DNA of 64,000 nt from an uncultured Dictyoglomota bacterium (GCA_964654465.1 CAZZIO010000022.1:1-64000), one strand, 5' to 3'; shown: positions 16,545 through 34,228, counted from the first letter of the stretch. Notes: a model not told the origin generated them from the sequence alone. Translations and numbers: made by a program.

Positions 16545-16733
16545 ATGTTAGTAAACGATATAGAAATAAAGTACAAGGGAAACATTAAAGGACTTCTTTT
16601 AAAACTTAAATACCCTTTAGAAAAAATAGCCGTTCTTGTTAACGGAGAAATTATTAAAAAAGAAGATTGGGAAAAATATTATCTTAAAGATGAAGATTAT
16701 GTGGAAATAGTATCCTTAGTAGGAGGGGGTTAA
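16545..16733 (+). CDS. thiS: Sulfur carrier protein ThiS
   Basis: 62 aa, AVLVNGEII, ends VGGG; first gene after TPP riboswitch. Confidence 0.95.
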   Translation: MLVNDIEIKYKGNIKGLLLKLKYPLEKIAVLVNGEIIKKEDWEKYYLKDEDYVEIVSLVGGG

Positions 16734-16740
16734 GAAGAAT

Positions 16741-17514
16741 ATGCAGTTTGAAATTGGTGGAAAAATAATAAACAATAGGTTATTTGTGGGAACTGGAAAA
16801 TTACCAGATTATAGCATTATCAAAAATATGTATGAAGAACTCAAAATAGAAGTATTTGTCGTAGCAGTGAGAAGAATAAATACAGATATAAATAAAGGCA
16901 ACTCTATATTAGATTTTATCCCAAGAGATGCTACCATCATGATAAATACCTCTGGGGCAAGAAATCATAAAGAAGCTGTAAAAATAGCTCTTATCGGTAG
17001 AGAAATTACAGGATCAAACTGGATTAAGATCGAAATCACAGGAGAAATGAAATATCTTCTGCCCGATAATGAAGAGACAATTAAAGCATCAGAAATTTTA
17101 GTAAAAGAAGGCTTCAAAGTATTTCCATATATATCACCTGATCTTATAATTGCCAAAAAACTTGAAGAAAAGGGAGTTTCAGCAGTAATGCCTTTAGGAT
17201 CTCCCATAGGTAGTAATAAGGGCATTGATTCAGAAATACTAATTAAAGCAATAATTAATGAAATTTCTATTCCTGTAATAATAGATGCAGGAATTGGTAA
17301 ACCTTCTCACGCCGCAAAAGCTATGGAGTTAGGAGCTGATGCTGTACTTATAAATACAGCCATAGCTACTTCAAAAGATCCCTTAAATATGGCAAGGGCT
17401 TTTAATTACGCTGTAAAAGCTGGAAGATTGGCATATGAAATAGGACTTCCAGAAGAAAAAGATTACGCAAGTGCAAGCTCTCCACTTTATGATCTCATTA
17501 AAAGTTTGGATTAA
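16741..17514 (+). CDS. thiG: Thiazole synthase
   Basis: RLFVGTGK, NTSGA, WIKIE, MPLGSPIGS, DAGIG. Confidence 0.97.
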   Translation: MQFEIGGKIINNRLFVGTGKLPDYSIIKNMYEELKIEVFVVAVRRINTDINKGNSILDFIPRDATIMINTSGARNHKEAVKIALIGREITGSNWIKIEITGEMKYLLPDNEETIKASEILVKEGFKVFPYISPDLIIAKKLEEKGVSAVMPLGSPIGSNKGIDSEILIKAIINEISIPVIIDAGIGKPSHAAKAMELGADAVLINTAIATSKDPLNMARAFNYAVKAGRLAYEIGLPEEKDYASASSPLYDLIKSLD

Positions 17515-17525
17515 TAGGTGAGCCA

Positions 17526-18632
17526 ATGTTAGAAAAAGTTCTAAATTGGGCTGATAATTTTTTAGAACAAATTAGAAAAGAAAAGAAAAAGTATGATATA
17601 AGGAAAATTTTAAAAAAGGAAGAAATAAACGAAGAAGAACTTTATATTCTACTATCTGATACAGACGACAATAATCTTGTACTTATGGCAGAAAAGTCAA
17701 AAAAACTTACAGAAAGATACTATGGAAAAGTTATCACTCTATTTACCCCTCTTTACCTTTCTAATTATTGTCTTTCATCATGTAAATATTGTGGTTTTTC
17801 TATAGAAAACAAAATAAAAAGAATAAAATTAAAAAAAGAAGAATTAATCGAAGAATATAAACACATAAAAAATTTTGGAATTGATAGTATTTTATTATTA
17901 ACAGGATGTGATAGAATCAATACACCTTTTGAATATATACTCTCTGCTGTAGAAGAAGCAAAAAATTACTTTTCTGAAATCATAATAGAGGTATATCCAA
18001 TGGATGAAGAAGAATATAAAATCCTTGTTAATAGAGGTCTAACAGGAGTAACACAATATCAAGAGACATATAACTTAAAAATATATGAAGAATTACATCC
18101 TTATGGCCCTAAAAAAGATTTCTGGTACCGAATAAAAACTCAAGAAAGAGCAATAAAAGCAGGAGTTTTTGAAGTTACCTTAGGTATTCTACTTGGGCTA
18201 AATAATCCCATTGAAGATACATTCAAAATGCTACTTCATGCTAAATATCTCATGCAAAAATATCCTAAGGCAGAAATAAATATCTCTTTTCCAAGATATC
18301 GCCCTGCTGGAACAAATTTTGTTCCCCAATATATTGTGAATTCAAAGACCCTATTACGTCTCATTTTTACCTCTCGAATTTATTTACCTCCAATCGGAAT
18401 CACCATTTCAACTCGTGAATCTCCAAAACTTAGAGATCTTATTATAGGTTATGGCGTTACAAAAATGTCGGCAGGTTCTAAAACATCCGTCGGTGGATAC
18501 GCAAAAGATAGAGAATCAGAAACACAATTTGAGGTAGAAGATAAAAGAAGCATAAAAGAAATAATTGAGATAATTAAAAGCAAAGGATATAGGCCAGAAT
18601 TTACAAATTGGATTAAAGGAGGCATAGCATGA
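17526..18632 (+). CDS. thiH: 2-iminoacetate synthase (radical SAM tyrosine lyase)
   Basis: FTPLYLSNYCLSSCKYCGF, YQETY, STRE, MSAGSKTSVGGY. Confidence 0.95.
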   Translation: MLEKVLNWADNFLEQIRKEKKKYDIRKILKKEEINEEELYILLSDTDDNNLVLMAEKSKKLTERYYGKVITLFTPLYLSNYCLSSCKYCGFSIENKIKRIKLKKEELIEEYKHIKNFGIDSILLLTGCDRINTPFEYILSAVEEAKNYFSEIIIEVYPMDEEEYKILVNRGLTGVTQYQETYNLKIYEELHPYGPKKDFWYRIKTQERAIKAGVFEVTLGILLGLNNPIEDTFKMLLHAKYLMQKYPKAEINISFPRYRPAGTNFVPQYIVNSKTLLRLIFTSRIYLPPIGITISTRESPKLRDLIIGYGVTKMSAGSKTSVGGYAKDRESETQFEVEDKRSIKEIIEIIKSKGYRPEFTNWIKGGIA

Positions 18633-19234
18633 ATGACTTTAGAGACATGCTTATAAATTATTTTACTCAAGAAGAATTAAATAAAATTCGTAAGACAAAA
18701 ATAGTAATAGCAGGTTGTGGGGGATTAGGCTCAAATGCTGCTATAACTCTCACAAGAACAGGTTTTGAAAATTTTATTCTCATAGATCATGATAAAGTAG
18801 AAACATCAAATTTAAATAGGCAAGCCTATTTCTACAATCAAATAGGTAAACCAAAAGTTATTGCTCTTAAAGAAAATATTCTTTCTATAAATTCTCATTG
18901 TAACATTATCACTTTTGAGGTGAAGATCACATCTGAGAATGTAATAGATCTATTATCTCAAGGAGACATCATTTTAGAAGCAGTAGACACTGCAGAAACA
19001 AAAGCCCTATTAATTAACACTGCTGTTAGTTTAGGTAAAAAGATCGTCTCAGCTATAGGAGTTTGTGGATTTGGTGACATTGAGAAAATAAAGATTAAAA
19101 AATTTAAAAACATAACCCTTATTGGAGATTTTCAAAGTGATAATAAAAACTTTCAACCTTATGCTCCTAAAGTAATTGCTATTTCAAGTATGCAATGTGA
19201 TGAAATTTTAAGGATGGTGCTATATGAAATCTAA
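18629..19234 (+). CDS. thiF: ThiS adenylyltransferase (short ThiF type)
   Basis: GCGGLGS, DHDKVETSNLNRQ, IGDF; thi operon context. Confidence 0.92.
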   Translation: MNDFRDMLINYFTQEELNKIRKTKIVIAGCGGLGSNAAITLTRTGFENFILIDHDKVETSNLNRQAYFYNQIGKPKVIALKENILSINSHCNIITFEVKITSENVIDLLSQGDIILEAVDTAETKALLINTAVSLGKKIVSAIGVCGFGDIEKIKIKKFKNITLIGDFQSDNKNFQPYAPKVIAISSMQCDEILRMVLYEI

Positions 19235-19892
19235 GAAATTAGATCTACTAAAGAATTACAATCTTTACTGCATTACAGCCGAAAATTTATCTTTAGGTAG
19301 AAACAATATAGAAGTAGTAAAAGAAATGCTATCTTCAGGTGTAAAAATCATACAATACAGAGAAAAGAAAAAAACATTAAAAGAAAAATATAAGGAAGCA
19401 TTAATTTTAAGAGAACTTACTCTACAATATAATGCCATTTTAATAGTTAATGATCATTTGGACCTTGCAAAAATTGTTGGGGCAGATGGGGTACATATTG
19501 GTCAAGACGATTATCCTATAGAAGTAGCAAGGGAATTATTAGGAGAAGAATTTATTATAGGAGTTACTACCCATAATAAAGAACAAGCCAAAAAAGCTGA
19601 AAAAGAGGGGGCTGATTATATTGGTCTTGGACCAATTTTTGAAAGTTTTACAAAAGAAAACCCCCATCCTCCAATTGGATTAGAGATTCTAAAATGGGCT
19701 ACCGCAAATATAAAAATTCCAGTAGTAGCGATAGGAGGTATTAAAGAAAACAATTTAAAACAAGTTTTTGAAAATGGAGGAAAATGTATAGCTATGGTAA
19801 GTGAGATTGTAGCTTCAGCTGATATTAAAGAAAAAATAAAAAATCTCATGAAGATAATGGAGGTTTACAAAAATGGAACAAACAATTCTTGA
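19224..19892 (+). CDS. thiE: Thiamine-phosphate synthase
   Basis: QYREK, VNDH, GVHIGQDD, AIGGI. Confidence 0.95.
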   Translation: MKSKKLDLLKNYNLYCITAENLSLGRNNIEVVKEMLSSGVKIIQYREKKKTLKEKYKEALILRELTLQYNAILIVNDHLDLAKIVGADGVHIGQDDYPIEVARELLGEEFIIGVTTHNKEQAKKAEKEGADYIGLGPIFESFTKENPHPPIGLEILKWATANIKIPVVAIGGIKENNLKQVFENGGKCIAMVSEIVASADIKEKIKNLMKIMEVYKNGTNNS

Positions 19893-21129
19893 AAAACTAA
19901 GAATAAATCAAGTCCCTCAAGAAATAGAAATAGCATATAAAAATGAAGAATTTCCATCTATAGAGGAGTTTATTAGAAAAACAAAAGAAGGGAAAATTGT
20001 AGTTCCAGCTAATAAAAAAAGAAAAAGAAATAAATATTATGCTATAGGAGATGGCTGTAGCATAAAAATAAACGCTAATATTGGGGTAACATCGGATTTT
20101 TCAAGTTTTGATCTGGAATTAAAGAAGGCTGAAATTTGTGAAAAATATAATGTGGAATCGGTAATGGATCTTTCTTGTGGCAAATATGCAAAATCCTTTA
20201 GAGAAAAATTAGTAAGAGAATTCAGTTTTTTGGTAGGGAGTGTACCAGTTTATGATATAGCAGTCCGTGCAAAGAATTTTATTAAAACAAAGCCAAAAGA
20301 TTTTCTTGAGGTTTTAGAAGAACATGCAGACTCAGGAGTAGATTTTGTAACTATACATGCAGGAATAAACTTAAGATTGGCAAAAGAATTAGAAAAATCA
20401 CAAAGAATTTTAAATATAGTATCCCGCGGAGGTTCTATGATATATAAATGGATGATAGAAAATCAATCTGAAAATCCTTACTATGAATACTTTGATGAAG
20501 TACTAAAGATACTAAAAAAATACGATGTAACCATAAGCATAGGTGACGCATTTAGGCCAGGATGTATTTTTGATTCAGGTAATAATTTACAGTTTGAGGA
20601 AATATTAGAAGTAAGTAAATTAGCCAAAATAGCCCATGATTATGGTGTACAAGTAATCATTGAGGGTCCTGGTCATATGAAAGCAGATGAAATACCCTAT
20701 ACCATAAAGACCATAAAAAAGATATGTCATGATTTTCCTTTGTATGTCCTTGGACCTCTAACCACTGATATTGCAGCAGGATATGATCACATATCAGGAA
20801 GCATGGGAGCATTAATTGCAGGTTTGAATGGAGCTGATTTTATATGTTATGTAACACCAGCAGAGCATCTAAGATTACCAAATATAGAAGACGTGAAAGA
20901 AGGAATCATCGCCTTTAAAATAGCAGCTCATAGTGTTAACTTGGTGAAAGGATTTAAAAAGAGTATAGAAAGGGATTATACTATGGCTTTAGCAAGAAAA
21001 AATTTAGATTGGGAAAAAATCATAAATACATCTATAGATCCTGATAAAGCAAAAGAATATAGAAAGGATTTATCAATAACCACATGTACTATGTGTGGTG
21101 ATCTTTGTGCAATCAAGAATAGCTCATAA
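19873..21129 (+). CDS. thiC: Phosphomethylpyrimidine synthase
   Basis: KINANIG, MDLS, IVSRGGS, EGPGH, GYDH, CYVTPAEHL, CTMCGDLC. Confidence 0.97.
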   Translation: MEQTILEKLRINQVPQEIEIAYKNEEFPSIEEFIRKTKEGKIVVPANKKRKRNKYYAIGDGCSIKINANIGVTSDFSSFDLELKKAEICEKYNVESVMDLSCGKYAKSFREKLVREFSFLVGSVPVYDIAVRAKNFIKTKPKDFLEVLEEHADSGVDFVTIHAGINLRLAKELEKSQRILNIVSRGGSMIYKWMIENQSENPYYEYFDEVLKILKKYDVTISIGDAFRPGCIFDSGNNLQFEEILEVSKLAKIAHDYGVQVIIEGPGHMKADEIPYTIKTIKKICHDFPLYVLGPLTTDIAAGYDHISGSMGALIAGLNGADFICYVTPAEHLRLPNIEDVKEGIIAFKIAAHSVNLVKGFKKSIERDYTMALARKNLDWEKIINTSIDPDKAKEYRKDLSITTCTMCGDLCAIKNSS

Positions 21130-21904
21130 AAAGAAGATTCTCATAATATCTGGGTATGATCCAACAGGTGGAGCAGGTATTTTATTGGATACAAAAACTA
21201 TTCATCTTCTTAATGGTTATGCTTTAGGAGTACCCACATGCCTTACTATTCAAGATACTCAAAGAGTATATAAAGTTTACGAAATAGATTCCAAATATTT
21301 TATAAAATCTCTCGAGTACTTAATAAATGATGTGAAAGAGATTGATGCAGTAAAAATAGGAGCTTTGTACTCAGAGAAAATTATTAATACTGTGATAGAT
21401 ATTATAATAAAATATAGATTAACTAATATTGTTCTTGATCCAATAATTAAACCAACAAAAGGTACCAAACTACTAAAGAAAAATAGTTTACAAAAATTAG
21501 TTCAACTAATGTCCTTATGTACTATAATAACCCCAAATATTCCCGAAGCAGAGGCACTTTTAAACATCAAGATAGAGACTTTAGAAGATATTAAAACAAC
21601 CATTTTCAATTTAAATAAACAATTTAATATAAAAAATATTGTATTGAAAGGCGGACATCTTCCCATAAATAACAAGGTATATGACATTCTTTATACAAAG
21701 GATAAATATATCTTTTACCCCAAAATTCTTAGACAAAACCTAAATGTACATGGTACAGGTTGTGTTTTCTCTTCAATCTTTGCTTATTATTTATCTAAAG
21801 AAAAAAATATAGAAGATGCCTTTTATAATACTGAATATACATTTGATAAGATCATAAACAATATAATACAAATAGGTCACGGACAAAAGGTATTTAATAT
21901 ATAG
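21107..21904 (+). CDS. thiD: Hydroxymethylpyrimidine/phosphomethylpyrimidine kinase
   Basis: GYDPTGGAGI, TPNIPEA, KGGH, HGTGC; start is GTG 21107 or 21095. Confidence 0.93.
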   Translation: MQSRIAHKKKILIISGYDPTGGAGILLDTKTIHLLNGYALGVPTCLTIQDTQRVYKVYEIDSKYFIKSLEYLINDVKEIDAVKIGALYSEKIINTVIDIIIKYRLTNIVLDPIIKPTKGTKLLKKNSLQKLVQLMSLCTIITPNIPEAEALLNIKIETLEDIKTTIFNLNKQFNIKNIVLKGGHLPINNKVYDILYTKDKYIFYPKILRQNLNVHGTGCVFSSIFAYYLSKEKNIEDAFYNTEYTFDKIINNIIQIGHGQKVFNI

Positions 21905-27687: not shown

Positions 27688-29868
27688 ATGCCTATAATAT
27701 ACGATGAGAATAACAAAATCTTTCATCTAATTTCTGGAAATTCCAGTTATATAATGAAAAATTTTAAGAACAAATATTTAGTCCACTTATATTGGGGAAA
27801 AAAATTAAATCATTCAGACTTTTCTGAAGCTTTTATAACTTCTCCCTTTGGAGCAAATCCTGATCCTAATGATAAAACTTACACTTTAGATAGAATGCTA
27901 TTAGAATATCCAGCCTATGGAAATTCAGATTTTAGACATCCTGCATATCAAATAGAACAAGAAGATGGATCAAGAATTACAAACCTTATATTTAAAGATT
28001 ACAAGATTTATAAAGGAAAACCAAAGCTCCAAGGACTACCAGCAACTTATGTGGAAGACGAAAATGAAGCAGAAACCCTTGAAATAGAGCTCATAGATGA
28101 TCTTATTAATCTAAGAGTTATTCTCCTATATACAGCATTTAGAGACTACAATGTTATTACAAGAAGTGCTAAGTTTATAAATGATGGGAATCAAAAATTA
28201 AAAATATTAAGAGCTTTAAGTACTTGTGTAGATTTTGATCACTGTAAGTTTGACCTTTTACATCTTTGGGGATCATGGGCAAGAGAAAGATATATAGAAA
28301 GAACTCCTTTAATGCAGGGTATAAAGACCATTGAAAGTTCACGAGGAGAAAGCTCTCACCAACATAATCCATTTATTGCTCTACTTTCTAAAGACGCAGA
28401 TGAAAAACACGGAGACGTATATGGCTTTAGTCTAGTATATAGTGGAAACTTTTCAGCTAATATAGAAGTAGATCAATTTAATACTACAAGAGTAACCATG
28501 GGGATAAATCCATTTGAATTTACTTGGATATTAAAAAAAGGAGAGACCTTTCAAACACCAGAAGTAGTAATGGTCTATTCTTCTGAAGGTTTGGGAGAAA
28601 TGTCAAGAACCTATCATAGGCTATATCGTAAAAGACTTTGTAGAGGTGAATATAGAGACAAAAGAAGACCTATTCTTGTGAATACATGGGAAGCAGTTTA
28701 TTTCAATATTAATGAAGATAAACTCTTAGCTCTTGCTCAAAAGGCAAAAGAGTTAGGAATAGAACTTTTTGTCTTAGATGATGGATGGTTTGGCAAAAGG
28801 GATGATGACACTAGCTCTCTTGGGGATTGGTATGTGGATAGAAGAAAATTACCAAACGGGCTTGATGGTCTTAGTAAAAAATTAAATGAAATGGGGTTAA
28901 AATTTGGACTATGGTTTGAACCAGAAATGGTTTCACCAAACAGTGAGCTTTATAAAAAACATCCTGATTGGTGCATACAAGTCCAAGGAAGGACATTATC
29001 TCAATGTAGAAATCAGTATGTTCTCGACATAACACGAGAAGAAGTAAGAAAGGAAATTCTTAAAATGATGAAGGAAATTATAAGAAACACCCCTATTGAA
29101 TATATAAAATGGGATATGAATAGACCTCTAACAGAAGTAGGCTCTCTTGCCCTTCCTCCAGAAAAACAAAAAGAAGTATTTCATAGATATGTTTTAGCAT
29201 TATACGAAATGATGGAAGAGTTAACAGCAGAATTTCCACATATTCTTTTTGAAGGTTGTTCAGGTGGAGGAGGAAGATTTGATCCTGGAATCCTATATTA
29301 TATGCCTCAAATATGGACTAGTGATAATACTGATGCTATAGAAAGATTAAAGATTCAGTGGGGAACAAGTATTGTGTATCCTGCATCCACTATGGGTGCC
29401 CACGTGTCTGCGGTACCTAATCACCAAGTTGGGAGAATTACACCTCTTAAGACAAGAGGATATGTAGCAATGTCAGGTGTTTTTGGATATGAAATGGACC
29501 TTACTAAATTAACAAAGGAAGAGGAAGAAATAATAAAAGATCAAATAGAATTCTATAAAAAGATATGGCATATAGTTTTTGAAGGAGATCTATATAGATT
29601 AATAAGCCCATTCGAAGAAAATGCTGCGTCTTGGATGTTTGTTACTCCGGATAAAAAAGAGGCCTTTGTAATATATGTAAATATCTTAGCTTTTCCTAAT
29701 CCACCCTTTTTAAAGCTCAAATTGGACGGACTTGATCCTAACAAAATATATAAAATAGAGGGAACCAATAGAGAATTTTATGGTGATGAATTAATGAATA
29801 TAGGAATTAATATACCCCCAATGAAAGATTTTGAATCTTTTGCATTCATACTAAAATCAAAAGAATAA
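27688..29868 (+). CDS. Alpha-galactosidase, GH36
   Basis: SSHQHNPF, NTWEA, LDDGWF, GLWFEPEM, KWDMN, CSGGGGRFD, WTSDNTD. Confidence 0.96.
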   Translation: MPIIYDENNKIFHLISGNSSYIMKNFKNKYLVHLYWGKKLNHSDFSEAFITSPFGANPDPNDKTYTLDRMLLEYPAYGNSDFRHPAYQIEQEDGSRITNLIFKDYKIYKGKPKLQGLPATYVEDENEAETLEIELIDDLINLRVILLYTAFRDYNVITRSAKFINDGNQKLKILRALSTCVDFDHCKFDLLHLWGSWARERYIERTPLMQGIKTIESSRGESSHQHNPFIALLSKDADEKHGDVYGFSLVYSGNFSANIEVDQFNTTRVTMGINPFEFTWILKKGETFQTPEVVMVYSSEGLGEMSRTYHRLYRKRLCRGEYRDKRRPILVNTWEAVYFNINEDKLLALAQKAKELGIELFVLDDGWFGKRDDDTSSLGDWYVDRRKLPNGLDGLSKKLNEMGLKFGLWFEPEMVSPNSELYKKHPDWCIQVQGRTLSQCRNQYVLDITREEVRKEILKMMKEIIRNTPIEYIKWDMNRPLTEVGSLALPPEKQKEVFHRYVLALYEMMEELTAEFPHILFEGCSGGGGRFDPGILYYMPQIWTSDNTDAIERLKIQWGTSIVYPASTMGAHVSAVPNHQVGRITPLKTRGYVAMSGVFGYEMDLTKLTKEEEEIIKDQIEFYKKIWHIVFEGDLYRLISPFEENAASWMFVTPDKKEAFVIYVNILAFPNPPFLKLKLDGLDPNKIYKIEGTNREFYGDELMNIGINIPPMKDFESFAFILKSKE

Positions 29869-29885
29869 AGGAGGATAAACCTAAT

Positions 29886-30086
29886 ATGAAAGTAATATTT
29901 AGAAGAGAAAATGAAATAAAAGAAATAAAAGGAAATTACAAAGTAAATGAAATACTTAAAATTTTAAATATAAATCCAGAAACCGTCATTGTAGTAAAGG
30001 GAGATGAAATTGTTACACCTGACAAATTAATAAAAGATGATGAAGAAATAGAAATCATACCCGTTATATCTGGAGGAAGTATATAA
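29886..30086 (+). CDS. ttuB: Ubiquitin-like sulfur carrier (TtuB/MoaD/ThiS family) with Ser-Ile extension after GG
   Basis: 66 aa beta-grasp pattern, ends IEIIPVISGG-SI; TAATG-coupled to TtuA homolog. Confidence 0.85.
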   Translation: MKVIFRRENEIKEIKGNYKVNEILKILNINPETVIVVKGDEIVTPDKLIKDDEEIEIIPVISGGSI

Positions 30087-31030
30087 TGAAATGCATAAAA
30101 TGCAAAAATGAAGCAAACATATACATAAGGCGCCATAATAGTGCCTTCTGTAAAGATCATTTTATTGAATATGTATTTCATCAAACAGAAAAGGCAATAA
30201 AGCAATATAAAATGTTTACCCAAGAGGAAAAAATTTTAGTTGCCGTCTCAGGAGGAAAGGATAGTTTAGCTTTATGGGATATTCTTATATCCTTAGGATA
30301 TAAAGCAGATGGCATGTATATAGATCTTGGTATCGGCGAATATTCTGAAAAATCTAAAGAAAAGGTTAAAAAATACGCCAATACCAAAGATCAAAAATTA
30401 CATATAATTTCTCTAAAAGAGATTTATGGGATCGGAATTGAAGAAATAGCCAAAAGAAATAAAAAAGTCCCCTGCTCTACTTGTGGAGTAATTAAAAGAT
30501 ATATAATGAATTTAACTGCAAGAGAATTAGGTTATAGTGTAATAACCACTGGCCATAATTTAGATGATGAGGCTGCTACACTTCTTGGTAATATCCTACA
30601 CTGGCAAATAGATTATTTAGAGGTCCAAGAACCTATTCATAAAGAGGAGAAATATTTTGTAAGAAAAGTAAAACCTCTATACAGACTAACAGAAATGGAA
30701 ACATCTTCGTACTGCTTAATAAAAAAGATAGATTACATAATAGATGAATGCCCTATGTCTTATGATGCAAGATCTCTTATGTTTAAAGAAGTCCTTAATA
30801 TATTAGAAAACAAATCTCCTGGGACAAAAGAACATTTTTATTATGGATTTTTAGAAAAGGGTATTAAATATATCAAAAGCCAAGAAAAAAAATTAGAATT
30901 AAAAAATTGTCAAATCTGTGGAGAACCTACAACTAAGGATATATGTGTATTCTGTAAGCAAATGGAAAAAGCCCACCTAAATTCCTTAGATATAAAAAAT
31001 GCCATAAAAAGGATTAAATTACAACAATAG
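30086..31030 (+). CDS. ttuA: tRNA 2-thiolation enzyme TtuA (PP-loop, Ncs6/TtcA family)
   Basis: N-terminal CxxC..CxxH, SGGKDS, CSTC, GHNLDDE, ECP, C-terminal CxxC..CxxC. Confidence 0.9.
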   Translation: MKCIKCKNEANIYIRRHNSAFCKDHFIEYVFHQTEKAIKQYKMFTQEEKILVAVSGGKDSLALWDILISLGYKADGMYIDLGIGEYSEKSKEKVKKYANTKDQKLHIISLKEIYGIGIEEIAKRNKKVPCSTCGVIKRYIMNLTARELGYSVITTGHNLDDEAATLLGNILHWQIDYLEVQEPIHKEEKYFVRKVKPLYRLTEMETSSYCLIKKIDYIIDECPMSYDARSLMFKEVLNILENKSPGTKEHFYYGFLEKGIKYIKSQEKKLELKNCQICGEPTTKDICVFCKQMEKAHLNSLDIKNAIKRIKLQQ

Positions 31031-31433
31031 TTATTTCATTAAGTATACTATTATTCCTAATATAGCCTTTTATATCTAAGGATAAGTTATCCTTTAATTT
31101 AATAGCTAATATCAAATAAAAAATATCCTTCAACATATGATTAATATCATCCAGAGAGGGCTCTACCCCCTTCTCTGGATGGGAATGATAAACTCCTAAC
31201 ATTTTTAAGCCATTTTTCTCAATATCTCTAAATACATAAAGCTCATCTAAGGGATCTATTAAATAGCTATTATAAGGTGATAAAGAAGCATTCTTGACTT
31301 TATAAACCTTCTCAATGATAAATTTTTCCTCCTTTGTATTTCCCCCAAAAATACCACAAGCTTCTTTTGGATACTCATCAATAGCATGATTAATTACAAA
31401 CTTTAACTGATCTTTTTTTAAGATTATTCTCAT
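31014..31433 (-). CDS. JAB/MPN+ (Mov34, JAMM) metallopeptidase
   Basis: YPKEACG...YHSHP...PSLDD, a complete E/HxH/SxxD motif. Confidence 0.9.
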   Translation of the reverse strand: MRIILKKDQLKFVINHAIDEYPKEACGIFGGNTKEEKFIIEKVYKVKNASLSPYNSYLIDPLDELYVFRDIEKNGLKMLGVYHSHPEKGVEPSLDDINHMLKDIFYLILAIKLKDNLSLDIKGYIRNNSILNEITIVVI

Positions 31434-32420
31434 CTATTTACCCATTGCAGTCAAAACATTAGGACAATAAGGATCAGGCTTTCTCAAATCCCCATTAATT
31501 ATCCAAGATCTCGCATAACAGCCACCCCCACAAAAATCCAATATCTCACAATTGTAACAATAATTAGTTCTCTCCTTAAGTTCTTTATATAAAGGATTCT
31601 TTAATATATCATTGATTGCCTCTTTCAATGATTTTGTCCTAATTTCTGCTATAGGAATATCAATAACATCACAAATTAATATATCTCCTGTAGGTGCAAG
31701 ATCAATAAAATCAAAAGCATGACATTTATCCACATAAATATTTTGAGGAAGGTCTAAAAGTTTAAGAAAAGGGGCACACCAAATATTTATTTTATAGTTT
31801 TCTTCCATTGCTTTAACGGATAATTCCTTTATGCTCTCTAATATTCTTGAGGAATCAAGATAAATATGAGATTTCTTAGCCTCACCTGAAGGGATAACAG
31901 GAATAATACAGAGTTCCTTAGCAAGATTTTTCTTTGCAAAATCTACCATGTTAGGTAAATCTTTATAATTAAATGTGGAAACCGAAAAAATTATGGAATA
32001 AGGTATATCCAAATTGTTAAGTATTTCTAATTTTTTTAATAAAATATCAAAGGTTCCTTTTCCCCTCAATTTTTCATAAATTTCTTTATCACTTCCATCA
32101 ACAGACACATAAAGATAGACATCATTTTCTTTTATAAATTTCGCTTTTTCATAGTCTAAAAGAAGGAGATTTGTATTTATGGAGACATTTAAATCTAAGT
32201 TCTTAGCCTCAACAATGTAATCAAATAATTCGGGGATTAAGAGAGTCTCTCCTCCTGTAAAATCAATATGAGTAAAATTTAATTTTTTTGCTTCTCCTAT
32301 TAATTTTAATACTCTTTCTTTTGATATTTTTTTCTCCCAATTTCTAGCATGTACATAACAATGTGGACAATTCAAATTACATTTAATATCTAAAATCCAA
32401 ATTATTTCAGTAAAGAAGAT
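31434..32420 (-). CDS. Radical SAM protein with SPASM domain; probable non-canonical ATC start
   Basis: CNLNCPHC motif (first Cys upstream of ORF-track start 32375), FTGGE, SVDG, SPASM C...G..L.C...CYNC....CGGGC...DPYC; SD AGGGAGG 5 nt before ATC. Confidence 0.88.
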   Translation of the reverse strand: MFFTEIIWILDIKCNLNCPHCYVHARNWEKKISKERVLKLIGEAKKLNFTHIDFTGGETLLIPELFDYIVEAKNLDLNVSINTNLLLLDYEKAKFIKENDVYLYVSVDGSDKEIYEKLRGKGTFDILLKKLEILNNLDIPYSIIFSVSTFNYKDLPNMVDFAKKNLAKELCIIPVIPSGEAKKSHIYLDSSRILESIKELSVKAMEENYKINIWCAPFLKLLDLPQNIYVDKCHAFDFIDLAPTGDILICDVIDIPIAEIRTKSLKEAINDILKNPLYKELKERTNYCYNCEILDFCGGGCYARSWIINGDLRKPDPYCPNVLTAMGK

Positions 32421-32601
32421 ATCAACCTCCCTTTTTAAGATTTAAATTATTTTATTTTTTGAGTATTTAAAGTTTACAATCTTAAAAAAAATTTGTCAAA
32501 AAATTGGAATCAATTTTTAAAAAATGAATTTTTAAAAGAACTATAAATCTCAGCTTAAATAAATATTAAGAAAACAATAATGTAACTAATACCATGACCA
32601 T

Positions 32602-32629
32602 TTGACATAGAAAATTAATTTGTGATAAT
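32602..32629 (+). promoter_or_regulatory. Sigma70-type promoter of amylase gene
   Basis: TTGACA-16nt-GATAAT with extended TG. Confidence 0.6.
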
Positions 32630-32740
32630 CTTTATCCCAAGAAGCGTAGGGTAGGTAAAAAGCCCGGGCGAGTGTAAACAATACGCTCTCCGGGCTTCTA
32701 AAATTTATCTTTATTAACACATGTTAATGAGGAGGAAAAC

Positions 32741-34228
32741 ATGAATAAAAAATTGAAATTTATTATAATCTTTTTATTTATTACCCTTTTATTTTTATTT
32801 TATGCCCATGGATATAATTTACCTTGGTACAAAAATGCAACTTTTTATGAGATTTTCGTTAGATCTTTTGCAGATAGTGATGGTGATAAAGTGGGAGATT
32901 TAAAAGGATTAACTAATAAATTAGATTATCTAAAAGAACTTAATATAGATGGCATATGGTTAATGCCCATATTTATGTCTGTAAGTTATCATGGATACGA
33001 TGTAACTGACTTTTATGACATTCATCCAGCATATGGAAATATGGAAGATTTTGAAGAATTAATTAAAGAAGCCCATAGAAAAAAGATAAAAATAATTCTT
33101 GATTTAGTTGTAAATCACACCTCATCCCGACATCCTTGGTTCATAAGTGCATCAAACTCTTATACTTCCCTATACAGAGATTATTATATTTGGAACAATA
33201 CAAAACCAACTCAGAACTCCAATTTTTGGTATTATAAAAATACGGGTTATTACTATGCCTTCTTTTGGTCTGAAATGCCTGATCTAAACTTTGATAATAC
33301 AAAGGTTAGAGAAGAAATCAAAAAGATAGCTAAATATTGGCTCGAAAAAGGTGTAGATGGATTTAGACTTGACGCTGTAAAGCATATATATGATGACGAT
33401 AATAAAAACATATTATGGTGGAAAGAGTTTTATGATTATTTAAAAAAAATCAAACCAGATGTATATCTTGTGGGAGAAGTCTGGGACAACGAATATGTAA
33501 TAGCAGAATATTATAAGTCACTTCCTTCGCTTTTTAACTTTCCCCTTTCAGACAAAATTATGAGTTCAGTAGCAAATCAAAGAGATTTAGGAATATGCGA
33601 TTTTTTAGATATGGAAAGAGAAATGTTTAAAGAAAATTATTCCGATTTTACTGATGCTACCTTCTTAAGAAATCATGATCAGGTTAGAGTAAGAACATCT
33701 TTTGGGGGGAGTATTGATAAAAGTCTACTTGCAGGTTCCATATACCTAACTCTTCCTGGAACTCCCTTTATATATTATGGTGAAGAAATAGGGATGGAAG
33801 GAGCAAAACCAGACGAATACATAAGAGAACCTTTTAAATGGACAGATCAAATGAATTCCAAAGAACAAACCTACTGGATAAAGCCTAAATATAATATTCC
33901 TAACAATGGCATATCCTATACTACAGAAAAAGAGGATAAGAATAGTATATTAAACCATTATAAACTACTCCTTAAACTAAGGAAAGAATATAAAGCTTTA
34001 TCCTTGGGAGAAATGAAAAAAATTAATCTAAATGATAAAAGTTTATTGGCATACCTAAGAGAAATAGATAATGAAGAAATATTAGTAATACATAATCTTA
34101 ATAGGGTAGAAAAGATGATAAGTCTAAACTTTACTTTTAAGAATATTCTCTATTCAAGAAACACTAACATAAAAGATAATAAAATAATATTAGGTCCCTT
34201 TAGCAGTATCATAATCGAAGTTCAATAA
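32741..34228 (+). CDS. Secreted alpha-amylase, GH13 (MPDLN/GH13_36-like)
   Basis: Signal peptide; YHGYDV, DLVVNH, MPDLN, GFRLDAVKH, GEVW, NHD, YYGEEIG. Confidence 0.93.
   Translation: MNKKLKFIIIFLFITLLFLFYAHGYNLPWYKNATFYEIFVRSFADSDGDKVGDLKGLTNKLDYLKELNIDGIWLMPIFMSVSYHGYDVTDFYDIHPAYGNMEDFEELIKEAHRKKIKIILDLVVNHTSSRHPWFISASNSYTSLYRDYYIWNNTKPTQNSNFWYYKNTGYYYAFFWSEMPDLNFDNTKVREEIKKIAKYWLEKGVDGFRLDAVKHIYDDDNKNILWWKEFYDYLKKIKPDVYLVGEVWDNEYVIAEYYKSLPSLFNFPLSDKIMSSVANQRDLGICDFLDMEREMFKENYSDFTDATFLRNHDQVRVRTSFGGSIDKSLLAGSIYLTLPGTPFIYYGEEIGMEGAKPDEYIREPFKWTDQMNSKEQTYWIKPKYNIPNNGISYTTEKEDKNSILNHYKLLLKLRKEYKALSLGEMKKINLNDKSLLAYLREIDNEEILVIHNLNRVEKMISLNFTFKNILYSRNTNIKDNKIILGPFSSIIIEVQ

What the first reader, a model, noticed from the sequence alone, without database searches (positions are those of the whole stretch)
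29886..32420. Capped ubiquitin-like sulfur carrier + TtuA converging on a JAB protease + SPASM radical SAM operon
Seen: the TtuB-like protein ends GG-SI, so its di-Gly is blocked, whereas ThiS in this window ends in a free GG. It is coupled to ttuA. On the opposite strand, overlapping ttuA by 17 bp, is an intact JAB/MPN+ peptidase (E, HxH, SxxD) directly abutting (TAG-ATG) a radical SAM-SPASM gene. Known: JAMM proteases trim or deconjugate prokaryotic Ubl carriers, and TtuA/TtuB make the thermostabilising s2T54 in tRNA. Inference: the JAB enzyme licenses tRNA thiolation by uncapping TtuB. The rSAM-SPASM enzyme, which has no recognised role in that pathway, may be a new component (modifying the carrier, tRNA or a peptide), or may form with JAB a maturase-peptidase pair for an unseen RiPP. 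No precursor peptide or RRE was found, and the only E1-like gene in the window is thiF.
Basis: partly seen in the sequence, partly recalled or inferred. Interest (0 to 1): 0.8.

Follow-up and report, generated by a model that had tools for sequence, protein, structure and literature searches.

The report
Capped TtuB, its JAB trimmer, unrelated rSAM
A heat-loving Dictyoglomus bacterium makes its tRNA-thiolation sulfur carrier with one or two extra residues after the reactive Gly-Gly end and keeps a JAB metalloprotease next door that most likely removes them, a known kind of arrangement, while the neighbouring radical SAM gene looks like an unrelated passenger of unknown function.

Summary
All four genes are present with the stated features: ttuB ends GG-SI, ttuA and the JAB gene overlap by 17 bp at their 3' ends, the rSAM stop abuts the JAB start (TAG-ATG), the JAB motif is intact, and the rSAM carries a SPASM domain.

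The JAB-uncaps-TtuB idea is supported, but it is not a new kind of system.
- In the family Dictyoglomaceae, all 4 genomes of the window's genus that hold the locus have a capped TtuB (SI, ST, R, R) and a JAB.
- The 5 sister-genus genomes have ttuA and no Prok-JAB. Four of their TtuBs end in a free GG and one ORF is truncated.
- This genome has one JAB, one capped ThiS-family protein and one E1 (ThiF).
- A predicted complex places the TtuB tail in the JAB active site (score 0.78, best control 0.01). A like complex is already solved.
- Precedents are QbsD/QbsE, CxnF/CxnE and the Thermus JAMM that acts on TtuB conjugates.

The rSAM reading is not supported.
- Its orthologues sit at unrelated loci in the sister genus.
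- Among 80 related loci, mostly from thermophilic archaea, TtuA lies nearby in 2 and JAB in 1.
- No neighbour is conserved and no NCBIfam cut-off is reached.
- Heme, tungsten-enzyme and sulfatase roles are excluded for this organism.

Side notes: the rSAM has a conserved ATC/ATA start codon, and another bacterial family has a TtuB-RadC(JAB) fusion upstream of ttuA.

The parts
29886..30086 (+). ttuB: ThiS/TtuB-type ubiquitin-like sulfur carrier, 66 aa, ending ...SGG-SI (a two-residue cap after the Gly-Gly)
   Evidence: ORF. ThiS 35.7 bits; best solved match is T. thermophilus TtuB, 4.5e-11; residues 8-64 align to the chain's very end ...ISGG, leaving S65 and I66 beyond it.
30086..31030 (+). ttuA: PP-loop, [4Fe-4S]-type tRNA 2-thiolase. 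Its start overlaps the ttuB stop (TAATG). The ttuB Gly-Gly codons GGAGGA lie 9 nt upstream of the ttuA ATG in the window (6-7 nt in two relatives) and read as its Shine-Dalgarno sequence.
   Evidence: 1.1e-84 to T. thermophilus TtuA (5gha/5ztb), 3.2e-79 to PH0300. TtuA equivalog 303 bits, below its 450 cut-off, against NcsA 131.8; junction sequence.
31014..31433 (-). JAB/MPN+ (JAMM) zinc metallopeptidase, 139 aa, convergent with ttuA (17-bp overlap). It is the second gene of the rSAM-JAB transcription unit and has no Shine-Dalgarno sequence of its own (TAG-ATG).
   Evidence: Prok-JAB 9.5e-16; desampylase model 70.1 bits, below its 130 cut-off. E24, H83, H85, S93, D96 invariant; the only Prok-JAB in the genome; 2kks 9.3e-17, PfJAMM1 7.7e-4.
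31434..32420 (-). Radical SAM-SPASM gene, 328 aa if started at ATC 32420. It belongs to an orphan family found mainly in thermophilic archaea. Co-transcribed with JAB only in this genus.
   Evidence: model pLDDT 89.3; nearest folds are SkfB, SuiB, CteB, anSME and PqqE.
32418..32431 (-). Shine-Dalgarno GGGAGG (32431-32426), 5 nt spacer, then the non-canonical start codon ATC (32420-32418) of the rSAM gene
   Evidence: The same GGAGGT(T)GAT-AT[C/A] arrangement occurs in 6 of 6 orthologues. In G001 and G003 an in-frame TGA lies 5 codons upstream.
32471..32499 (-). Sigma-70-like promoter TTGACA-17-TAAACT for the rSAM-JAB unit
   Evidence: 10 of 12 matches. TTGACA and a TAAAAT/TAAACT box are also seen upstream in G001, G002 and G003. 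This is a consensus match only.
18629..19234 (+). thiF, the only E1-like adenylyltransferase in the genome and the inferred activator of TtuB as well as ThiS
   Evidence: the only PF00899 match over cut-off. NF006395 ThiF 239.4 bits against a 159 cut-off. The role towards TtuB is inferred.
16545..16733 (+). thiS with a free C-terminal ...VGGG, the uncapped comparison carrier
   Evidence: TIGR01683 57.7 bits against a 37.45 cut-off.

Best explanation
The locus holds two functionally separate units that are adjacent in the genus Dictyoglomus.

Unit 1 is ttuB-ttuA, translationally coupled, plus the convergent JAB gene.
- TtuB is made as a pro-form, GG-SI here and GG-ST or GG-R in sister species. 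In this form it cannot be adenylated or thiocarboxylated.
- The JAB/MPN+ zinc peptidase binds the TtuB beta-grasp, threads the C-terminal tail into its E...HxH...SxxD site and cuts after Gly64.
- The exposed Gly-Gly is adenylated by the genome's only E1 (ThiF) and converted to a thiocarboxylate.
- TtuA then uses it to make 2-thiouridine in tRNA (s2T54-type).
- The same JAB probably also removes TtuB from lysine conjugates, as the Thermus JAMM does.

Unit 2 is the rSAM-SPASM gene. It belongs to an orphan family that stands alone in the genome and is mostly archaeal and thermophilic. It has no conserved link to TtuA, TtuB or JAB. In Dictyoglomus the JAB gene merely sits behind it in one transcript. 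My guess for its role is a radical modification of a protein or peptide substrate encoded elsewhere.

Shown: the gene content, motifs, phyletic pattern and lack of conserved linkage.
Inferred: the cleavage, the E1 assignment, the tRNA position and the rSAM substrate class.
For: 1. Cap and JAB co-occur.
- The synteny aGal-ttuB-ttuA-JAB(-)-rSAM(-)-amylase is seen whole in G001 and G003 and, from ttuA onward, on G002's contig.
- TtuB ends GGSI (G000), GGST (G002), GGR (G001, G003). The cap varies in sequence and length, as expected for a discarded extension.
- Prok-JAB is found in 4 of 11 family genomes, and these are exactly the four with the locus. It is found in 0 of 5 sister-genus g3 genomes, each about 99% complete.
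- All 5 g3 genomes have ttuA. In 4 the adjacent TtuB ends ...AVSGG; the fifth ORF is truncated.

2. This genome has 1 Prok-JAB, 2 ThiS-family proteins (only TtuB is capped) and 1 E1.

3. TtuB aligns to the end of solved T. thermophilus TtuB (...ISGG), so S65 and I66 are extra. TtuA matches Thermus TtuA at 1.1e-84, with the CSxCG...K and ECP positions aligned.

4. Complex prediction for JAB plus TtuB:
- Score 0.78, best of 3 controls 0.01. That mark was reached by 58 of 80 solved complexes and 2 of 110 mismatched pairs; these counts hold only roughly here, because my own alignments were used.
- The three runs agree in at least 88% of contacts, and the partner pLDDT is at least 88.
- TtuB residues 58-66 touch JAB 24, 26, 83-86 and 93-96.
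- A like complex (PfJAMM1-SAMP2, 5lda) is solved, so this pass shows likeness and may come from memory.

5. Precedents, read as passages:
- QbsD is proposed to remove CF from QbsE, and CxnF a decapeptide from CxnE (PMC5925218).
- Deleting the Thermus JAMM gives aberrant TtuB conjugates and about 50% less thiouridine (PMC3980101).
- DR0402 cleaves a MoaD-MoaE fusion to expose a C-terminal Gly (PMC8832034).

6. An independent fusion: in G181 and G301, two genera of another family, the ORF upstream of ttuA is TtuB(...SGG)-UPF0758_N-RadC-type JAB.

7. The rSAM is independent of this unit.
- Orthologues in G006 and G008 (56-57% identity) sit beside galK or G6PDH/DUF89-like genes, without JAB or TtuA.
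- In 80 related loci, TtuA is nearby in 2, JAB in 1 and TtuB in 0.
- The commonest neighbour in 67 loci is a generic ABC ATPase, in 16; all others occur in 8 or fewer.
- No rSAM and no JAB lies within 4 kb of ttuA in 40 loci outside the genus.
Against: - No cleavage has been observed; everything about catalysis is inferred.
- The cap/JAB pattern inside the family amounts to one evolutionary contrast (genus g1 against g3), not many independent events.
- Outside the family, 6 of the 20 TtuBs found next to ttuA are extended after GG, yet none has a JAB within 4 kb. A capped TtuB therefore does not need an adjacent JAB.
- All 5 of 5 extended-TtuB genomes tested have a Prok-JAB over cut-off somewhere, against 2 of the 5 free-GG genomes I tested (5 of 10 available). 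However, three of the JABs inspected (G259 and G034 in the capped set, G242 in the free-GG set) sit beside CysM-type genes, so this is a weak test.
- A one-residue cap (Arg) could be removed by any carboxypeptidase.
- The JAB gene is co-transcribed with the rSAM gene, not with ttuBA. I explain this linkage only as a historical accident.
- ThiF here is the short 201-aa thiamine type. Its activity on TtuB is assumed.
- The TtuA equivalog model is not reached (303 bits against 450).
Confidence: 0.6

Rival explanations
1. The JAB is mainly an isopeptidase that removes TtuB from lysines of TtuA, ThiF and other proteins, regulating thiolation as in Thermus. Cap removal is incidental or done by another peptidase.
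For: Deleting the Thermus JAMM alters TtuB conjugates of TtuA and TtuC and halves thiouridine (PMC3980101 passages). The lysine just after the CSxCG motif, the Thermus conjugation site K137, aligns with a Lys in this TtuA. HvJAMM1 and PfJAMM1 cleave both isopeptide and linear bonds (PMC8832034 passages). A complex model cannot tell the two activities apart.
Against: Conjugation itself needs a free Gly-Gly, so something must remove the cap first, and the genome has only one JAB. The sister genus has ttuA, and in 4 of 5 genomes an intact free-GG ttuB, but no JAB, so a deconjugase is not a general need of the pathway in this family. What tracks the JAB is the cap.
Confidence: 0.2
2. The rSAM-SPASM enzyme and the JAB are a functional pair. 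Either they are a RiPP maturase plus leader peptidase, or the rSAM modifies TtuB, TtuA or tRNA as a new step of the pathway.
For: The two genes abut (TAG-ATG) behind one promoter, and the pair is kept in 4 of 4 genomes of the genus that hold the locus. The nearest folds are peptide-modifying SPASM enzymes: SkfB, SuiB, CteB and anSME.
Against: Orthologues in G006 and G008 lack the JAB, and the JAB is absent from that genus. JAB lies within 8 kb in 1 of 80 related loci, and there is no conserved neighbour in 67 loci. Only about 13 residues precede CX3CX2C, which leaves no room for an N-terminal RRE. The upstream ORFs of 20 aa or more are 23-44 aa, overlap the promoter or hairpin, and none looks like a precursor. 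The JAB's tail-binding surface is predicted to fit TtuB.
Confidence: 0.07
3. The cap is an inert by-product of the ttuB/ttuA overlap, where the GGAGGA Gly-Gly codons serve as the ttuA Shine-Dalgarno sequence. TtuB is not processed, TtuA takes sulfur directly from sulfide, and the JAB has an unrelated substrate.
For: The Gly-Gly codons GGAGGA sit 6-9 nt before the ttuA ATG in three genomes of the genus, so the extra codons could simply provide spacing. 15 of 35 ttuA loci outside the family show no adjacent ttuB at all, although some are cut by contig ends. Direct use of sulfide by [4Fe-4S] TtuA in vitro is recalled from the literature and was not checked here.
Against: ttuB is conserved at 71-72% identity within the genus with an intact SGG, which argues that it is used. 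The sister genus gets the same coupling with a free GG and a 4-nt gap. The only JAB in the genome lies against ttuA.
Confidence: 0.1

Closest known systems
Thermus thermophilus TtuA/TtuB/TtuC with its JAMM isopeptidase (Shigi 2012, as summarised in the PMC3980101 review, passages read)
   Same: The same TtuA (1.1e-84) and TtuB (4.5e-11) families. A JAMM/MPN+ enzyme is tied to TtuB. An E1 is shared with thiamine synthesis.
   Different: The solved Thermus TtuB chain ends at ...ISGG, and its JAMM is described as a deconjugase. Here TtuB carries 1-2 extra residues, the JAB gene lies convergent to ttuA, and the E1 is a short 201-aa ThiF.
QbsD/QbsE (thioquinolobactin) and CxnF/CxnE (chuangxinmycin): JAMM peptidases that trim capped sulfur-carrier proteins (PMC5925218, passages)
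   Same: A ThiS/MoaD-type carrier made with residues after Gly-Gly (CF, or a decapeptide). A clustered JAMM enzyme is proposed to expose the GG for adenylation.
   Different: Those carriers serve secondary-metabolite sulfur insertion, whereas this one sits with a tRNA thiolase. The cap sequences are unrelated. According to the passage read, the cleavage is described there as proposed.
HvJAMM1, PfJAMM1-SAMP2 (PDB 5lda) and DR0402 with the MoaD-MoaE fusion (PMC8832034, passages)
   Same: A stand-alone MPN+ domain of about 130-140 aa with the same motif. It cleaves after the Ubl Gly-Gly in linear fusions. Sequence matches to 5lda exist for both the JAB (7.7e-4) and TtuB/SAMP2 (1e-6).
   Different: Low identity. 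The desampylase NCBIfam model is not reached (70.1 bits against 130). The substrate here has a 2-residue tail, not a protein fusion.
SPASM radical SAM enzymes: anSME, PqqE, SkfB, SuiB, CteB, and the NirJ2/AhbD models
   Same: A CX3CX2C core plus a 7-Cys SPASM domain. Fold TM-scores are 0.67-0.78. Best NCBIfam hits are NirJ2 at 110 bits and AhbD at 101 bits.
   Different: Every score is far below its cut-off of 350-650 bits. There is no N-terminal RRE and no neighbouring substrate gene. The genome lacks ALAD. No AOR N-domain was found in the 11 family genomes, and no sulfatase in the 5 of the window's genus. The known substrates of these relatives are therefore absent.

Membership tests
TtuA (tRNA 5-methyluridine-54 2-sulfurtransferase, TtcA group II) | PP-loop SGGKDS ATP-pyrophosphatase core | tested here: met
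   VAVSGGKDS is aligned to Thermus TtuA. PF01171 scores 48.6 bits against a 27 cut-off.
TtuA (tRNA 5-methyluridine-54 2-sulfurtransferase, TtcA group II) | N- and C-terminal Zn-finger CxxC pairs, and the three cluster cysteines (CxxC plus C) | tested here: met
   TtuA_LIM_N 38 bits. CSTCG and DECP align with CSACG and EECP of 5gha, and CQICG...CVFC aligns at the C-terminus. The assignment of these Cys as cluster ligands is recalled, not computed.
TtuA (tRNA 5-methyluridine-54 2-sulfurtransferase, TtcA group II) | Curated equivalog score (NF049949, cut-off 450) | tested here: not met
   303 bits. It is still far above NcsA (131.8) and TtcA (79.3). I therefore file it as TtuA-like; the target position is not proven.
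TtuA (tRNA 5-methyluridine-54 2-sulfurtransferase, TtcA group II) | Forms s2T54 in tRNA | not testable with these tools
   Needs tRNA mass spectrometry.
TtuB / ThiS-MoaD sulfur carrier | Beta-grasp ThiS-family domain | tested here: met
   PF02597 35.7 bits against a 22.5 cut-off. Best solved match is T. thermophilus TtuB.
TtuB / ThiS-MoaD sulfur carrier | Free C-terminal Gly-Gly | tested here: not met
   It ends GG-SI, and its relatives in the genus end GG-ST or GG-R. It is a pro-form that needs trimming.
JAMM/MPN+ metallopeptidase | Motif E-x(n)-H-S/T-H-x7-S-x2-D | tested here: met
   E24 and H83-S-H85-PEKGVEP-S93-LD-D96. These residues are invariant in 40 homologues.
JAMM/MPN+ metallopeptidase | Pfam Prok-JAB gathering score | tested here: met
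   58.1 bits against 25.
JAMM/MPN+ metallopeptidase | Cleaves after the Ubl Gly-Gly | not testable with these tools
   There is only a predicted complex with the tail in the active site.
Desampylase (NF041370, HvJAMM1 type) | Curated equivalog score of 130 | tested here: not met
   70.1 bits.
Radical SAM-SPASM superfamily | CX3CX2C cluster motif | tested here: met
   C14, C18 and C21 are invariant. In this genome the motif is complete only if translation starts at ATC 32420.
Radical SAM-SPASM superfamily | Seven-Cys SPASM domain | tested here: met
   C233, C250, C288, C291, C297, C301 and C319 are invariant. Pfam SPASM alone is below cut-off (17.4 against 21.5). The fold matches anSME, PqqE and SuiB.
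NirJ/NirJ2/AhbC/AhbD (heme and heme d1 rSAM) | Curated scores of 500-650, and a tetrapyrrole pathway in the genome | tested here: not met
   110, 101, 91 and 88 bits. No ALAD was found in the 99.97%-complete genome.
PqqE / MftC / anSME / tungsten-oxidoreductase rSAM maturase | Curated scores, and presence of the substrate gene | tested here: not met
   PqqE 68.8 against 381; MftC 88.8 against 265; anSME 72.2 against 349; W maturase 82.5 against 380. AOR N-domain found in 0 of 11 family genomes. Sulfatase found in 0 of 5 genomes of the window's genus, G000 included, and in 1 of 11 overall.

The most novel reading that the evidence does not exclude
The orphan rSAM-SPASM family has about 330 aa, no RRE and no conserved neighbours. 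It is spread through thermophilic Thermoproteota and a few thermophilic bacteria. It could be an undiscovered housekeeping modification enzyme of thermophiles. Its fixed pairing with the TtuB protease in Dictyoglomus, under a deliberately weak ATC/ATA start, could then reflect a real functional tie to the tRNA-thiolation machinery, for example a radical modification of TtuA, TtuB or tRNA.
Probability: 0.07. Interest if true: 0.65.

Novelty: new member of a known kind. Interest (0 to 1): 0.3.

Why it matters
A capped sulfur carrier with a JAMM trimmer is an established theme (QbsD/QbsE, CxnF/CxnE, MoaD-MoaE fusions, SAMPs). Its application to the tRNA-thiolation carrier TtuB in a bacterial thermophile is a tidy natural example. 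Inside one bacterial family, the cap and the protease appear and disappear together. This gives a simple in vitro system, three small proteins from a thermophile, to ask whether proteolytic licensing gates s2T54 formation.

The practical gains are corrections:
- The rSAM should not be annotated as part of this pathway.
- Its public gene models are often N-terminally truncated, because the true start is ATC or ATA.

The TtuB-RadC fusion seen elsewhere may interest people who work on the still unexplained RadC-type JAB domain.

Tried and rejected
- Tungsten-oxidoreductase maturase role for the rSAM: the AOR N-domain was found in 0 of 11 family genomes.
- Sulfatase maturase role: sulfatase was found in 0 of 5 genomes of the window's genus and in 1 of 11 overall, G008 at 25.6 bits.
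- Heme or heme d1 role: no ALAD in the own genome.
- Precursor-peptide hunt upstream of the rSAM: only 23-44 aa ORFs that overlap the promoter or hairpin.
- Rfam on 29500-33000 at E up to 1: 0 matches.
- Intrinsic-terminator scan of 29500-32800: 0 found.
- Neighbour clustering of 67 rSAM loci gave no partner. Pfam labels of the top clusters are ABC_tran, PK_C, DUF488, TauE, MFS and an SPL-like rSAM; the largest occurs in 16 of 67 loci and all others in 8 or fewer.
- ESM Atlas gave only generic rSAM/SPASM clusters.
- The word-based homologue search with the JAB found only 2 proteins. The HMMER scan found 3221 at E up to 1e-3 but only 1 at 1e-30, so the JAB is a fast-evolving member of a diffuse family.
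- Metagenome-wide JAB context could not be done. The tool found no stretch conserved enough in alignment A3, then none in the smaller A4. I then dropped it.
- Expression: no RNA holder was listed, and read laying was not used.
- Genome-level test of cap against JAB outside the family: judged weak, because the JABs inspected sit with CysM-type genes.
- Membrane-spanning-lipid synthase idea: the paper mentions Dictyoglomus only in a figure legend listing MSL synthases (PMC13159169). I did not compare those proteins with this one.
- Papers on a TtuB/ThiS-RadC fusion: the search 'RadC, MoaD, JAB domain' returned 0 papers. An earlier search was spoiled because 'ThiS' matched the word 'this'. The RadC passages of PMC3239186 list other RadC fusions and none with a Ubl. 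Its supplements were not seen and may list more.


Full report
**What is there**

The window is contig C22 of a 1.91-Mb, 99.97%-complete genome, with about 28-35% G+C in the window. Public names attached to the closest rSAM homologues place it in Dictyoglomus/Dictyoglomaceae.

Between an alpha-galactosidase-like gene and an amylase-like gene lie four genes:
- ttuB, 29886-30086 (+)
- ttuA, 30086-31030 (+)
- a JAB gene, 31014-31433 (-)
- a radical SAM-SPASM gene, 31434-32420 (-)

- TtuB ends ...ISGGSI.
- ttuA and the JAB gene overlap by 17 bp at their 3' ends.
- The rSAM stop TAG is followed at once by the JAB ATG.
- The JAB carries E24, H83-x-H85 and S93-x-x-D96. These residues are invariant across 40 homologues.
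- thiS in the same window ends in a free ...VGGG.
- thiF is the only E1-type gene in the window, and also in the whole genome.

**Identity of the thiolation genes**

TtuA matches solved T. thermophilus TtuA at 1.1e-84 and P. horikoshii PH0300 at 3.2e-79. The PP-loop, the CSxCG...K segment and the ECP cysteine are all aligned. It scores 303 bits on the NCBIfam TtuA equivalog, whose cut-off is 450, against 132 bits for NcsA. I call it TtuA-like; the tRNA position is not proven.

TtuB's best solved match is T. thermophilus TtuB. The alignment runs to the very end of that chain (...ISGG), which leaves Ser65 and Ile66 as extra residues.

**Does the JAB go with the cap?**

Inside the genus (g1) the arrangement aGal-ttuB-ttuA-JAB-rSAM-amylase is seen whole in G001 and G003. 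In G002 it is seen from ttuA onward, because that contig starts inside ttuA. The caps differ: SI (this genome), ST (G002) and R (G001, G003). Variable length and sequence is what a discarded extension should look like.

The Prok-JAB HMM finds a match in 4 of 11 family genomes, and these are exactly the four with the locus. The remaining seven split as follows (the protein query gave the same pattern).
- G004: same genus, 72% complete, no match.
- G005: genus g2, no match.
- All 5 genomes of sister genus g3, each about 99% complete: no match.

All 5 g3 genomes have ttuA. In 4 of them the adjacent TtuB ends ...AVSGG, and the fifth ORF is truncated. So cap and JAB appear together and are absent together. 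This is effectively one evolutionary contrast, not a statistic.

In this genome there is one JAB, and only one of the two ThiS-family proteins is capped.

**Predicted complex**

A predicted JAB-TtuB complex scored 0.78 against a best control of 0.01.
- The mark was reached by 58 of 80 solved complexes and 2 of 110 mismatched pairs. These counts hold only roughly here, because my own alignments were used.
- The runs agree in at least 88% of contacts, and the partner pLDDT is at least 88.
- TtuB residues 58-66 lie against JAB residues 24, 26, 83-86 and 93-96.

A like complex (PfJAMM1-SAMP2, 5lda) is solved, and both proteins have sequence matches to it. The pass therefore shows likeness; it does not show that this pair binds.

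**Wider survey**

TtuA was found in 44 of 301 genomes sampled. I fetched 40 ttuA loci outside the genus: 35 outside the family and 5 from g3.
- None has a JAB, and none has an rSAM, detectable with the window's proteins within 4 kb.
- Of the 35 outside the family, 20 have an adjacent TtuB. Ten end in GG, six are extended after GG and four end SRG, SKG or STG.
- The six extensions are 2, 2, 7, 21 and about 29 residues, plus one 261-residue RadC module.
- All 5 extended-TtuB genomes tested have a Prok-JAB over cut-off somewhere, against 2 of the 5 free-GG genomes I tested out of 10 available.
- The JABs I inspected there lie beside CysM-type genes, so this test is weak.

A more telling by-product concerns G181 and G301, two genera of another family. 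There the ORF upstream of ttuA is a single protein: TtuB (ending SGG), then UPF0758_N, then a RadC-type JAB domain. Its protein cluster has 3 members on 2 contigs. This is an independent physical link between TtuB and a JAB-fold domain.

**Precedent**

All papers below were read as passages.
- QbsD is proposed to trim CF from QbsE, and CxnF a decapeptide from CxnE (PMC5925218).
- A Thermus JAMM deletion gives aberrant TtuB conjugates and about 50% less thiouridine (PMC3980101).
- DR0402 cleaves a MoaD-MoaE fusion, and HvJAMM1 and PfJAMM1 cleave SAMP fusions (PMC8832034).

The proposed mechanism is therefore a new member of a known kind.

**The radical SAM gene**

It has the CX3CX2C motif and all seven SPASM cysteines. 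The model is confident (pLDDT 89.3), and its nearest folds are SkfB, SuiB, CteB, anSME and PqqE. No NCBIfam model comes near its cut-off: NirJ2 110 against 500, AhbD 101 against 500, MftC 89 against 265, PqqE 69 against 381.

True orthologues (56-89% identity) occur in 6 of 11 family genomes. In G006 and G008 they lie next to galT-galK or G6PDH/DUF89-like genes, with no JAB or ttuA nearby.

The family is much larger in thermophilic archaea: Thermofilaceae, Desulfurococcales, Bathyarchaeia, Brockarchaeota, Aigarchaeota and others. A few bacteria also have it (545 relatives confirmed, the best 80 kept).
- In those 80 loci, TtuA lies within 8 kb in 2, JAB in 1 and TtuB in 0.
- In the 67 best loci no neighbour is conserved. 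A generic ABC ATPase occurs in 16, and everything else in 8 or fewer.

Three candidate roles suggested by weak HMM hits can be excluded for this organism.
- Tetrapyrrole: no ALAD in the genome.
- Tungsten enzyme: no AOR N-domain in 11 family genomes.
- Sulfatase: none in the genus.

With only about 13 residues before the cluster motif there is no N-terminal RRE, and no credible precursor ORF lies upstream. Its substrate remains unknown. From the fold neighbours, my guess is a protein or peptide encoded elsewhere.

**Start codon**

No ATG, GTG or TTG precedes the first cluster cysteine. A GGGAGG Shine-Dalgarno sequence is followed after 5 nt by ATC (32420). The same arrangement with ATC or ATA is kept in all 6 orthologues, and in G001 and G003 an in-frame TGA lies five codons upstream.

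Some public models already start there: P0003 and P0005 begin MF(I)T at that position. Others are truncated to 305-315 aa and lose the first cysteine. The JAB gene, with no Shine-Dalgarno sequence of its own, probably depends on translation of this weakly initiated gene. That dependence is inference.

**Verdict**

The JAB-TtuB link is the best reading (about 0.6) and is ordinary in kind. The rSAM link is most likely an accident of gene order in one genus.

Noticed in passing
window 32418-32431 (-), with L021, L022, L023, L024 and L025 at the rSAM 5' ends: The rSAM gene has a conserved non-canonical start codon: ATC in G000 and G002, ATA in G001, G003, G006 and G008. It lies 4-5 nt after a GGAGG(T) Shine-Dalgarno sequence. 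No orthologue has changed it to ATG, although one base would do. Many public gene models are truncated and lose the first cluster cysteine.
   Followed up: partly
L152:3030-4004 (+) in G181, and L176 about 2427-1504 (-) in G301: Upstream of ttuA, a single ORF encodes TtuB (ThiS domain 4-63, ending SGG) fused to UPF0758_N and a RadC-type JAB domain. It is kept in two genera of one family. RadC-type JAB domains have been argued to act on nucleic acids (PMC3239186 passages), so a fusion to a ubiquitin-like carrier is unexpected.
   Followed up: partly
L133, L139, L134 and L153 (ttuB homologues next to ttuA in G210, G042, G171 and G212): TtuB-like proteins end ...VVSRG, ...VYSKG or ...VMSTG instead of Gly-Gly.
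   Followed up: no
window 30075-30088; L021 and L022 junctions: The Gly-Gly codons of ttuB (GGAGGA) lie 6-9 nt before the ttuA ATG and look like its Shine-Dalgarno sequence. The ttuB stop and the ttuA start overlap (TAATG). The cap codons may therefore also serve as spacing.
   Followed up: partly
window about 32650-32695, between the amylase start (32741) and the rSAM promoter: A G+C-rich hairpin (GCCCGG...CCGGGC) is followed by TTTTT on the minus strand, yet no minus-strand gene lies directly upstream of it. It falls in the 5' leader of the amylase gene, downstream of a strong plus-strand promoter match (32602-32629, 11 of 12). There is no Rfam match.
   Followed up: no
L161:4940-5122 (-) in G010: The ttuB ORF next to ttuA stops early (...NTSISPED) and lacks the C-terminal ...EVINAVSGG of its four sister genomes. 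This may be a frameshift or an assembly error.
   Followed up: no
window 16545-21904 (+): A complete thiS-thiG-thiH-thiF-thiE-thiC-thiD operon. ThiF is the short 201-aa type and the only E1-like enzyme in the genome. No third ThiS/MoaD-family protein scored over the Pfam cut-off.
   Followed up: partly
G000:C22:71621-72388 (-) and 86493-86918 (+), beyond the window; L137 and L136: Two more rSAM paralogues lie on the same contig, at 30% and 29% identity to this one. Separately, in G030 and G199 a radC gene lies 1-2 kb from ttuA with a PfkB-like kinase between them.
   Followed up: no
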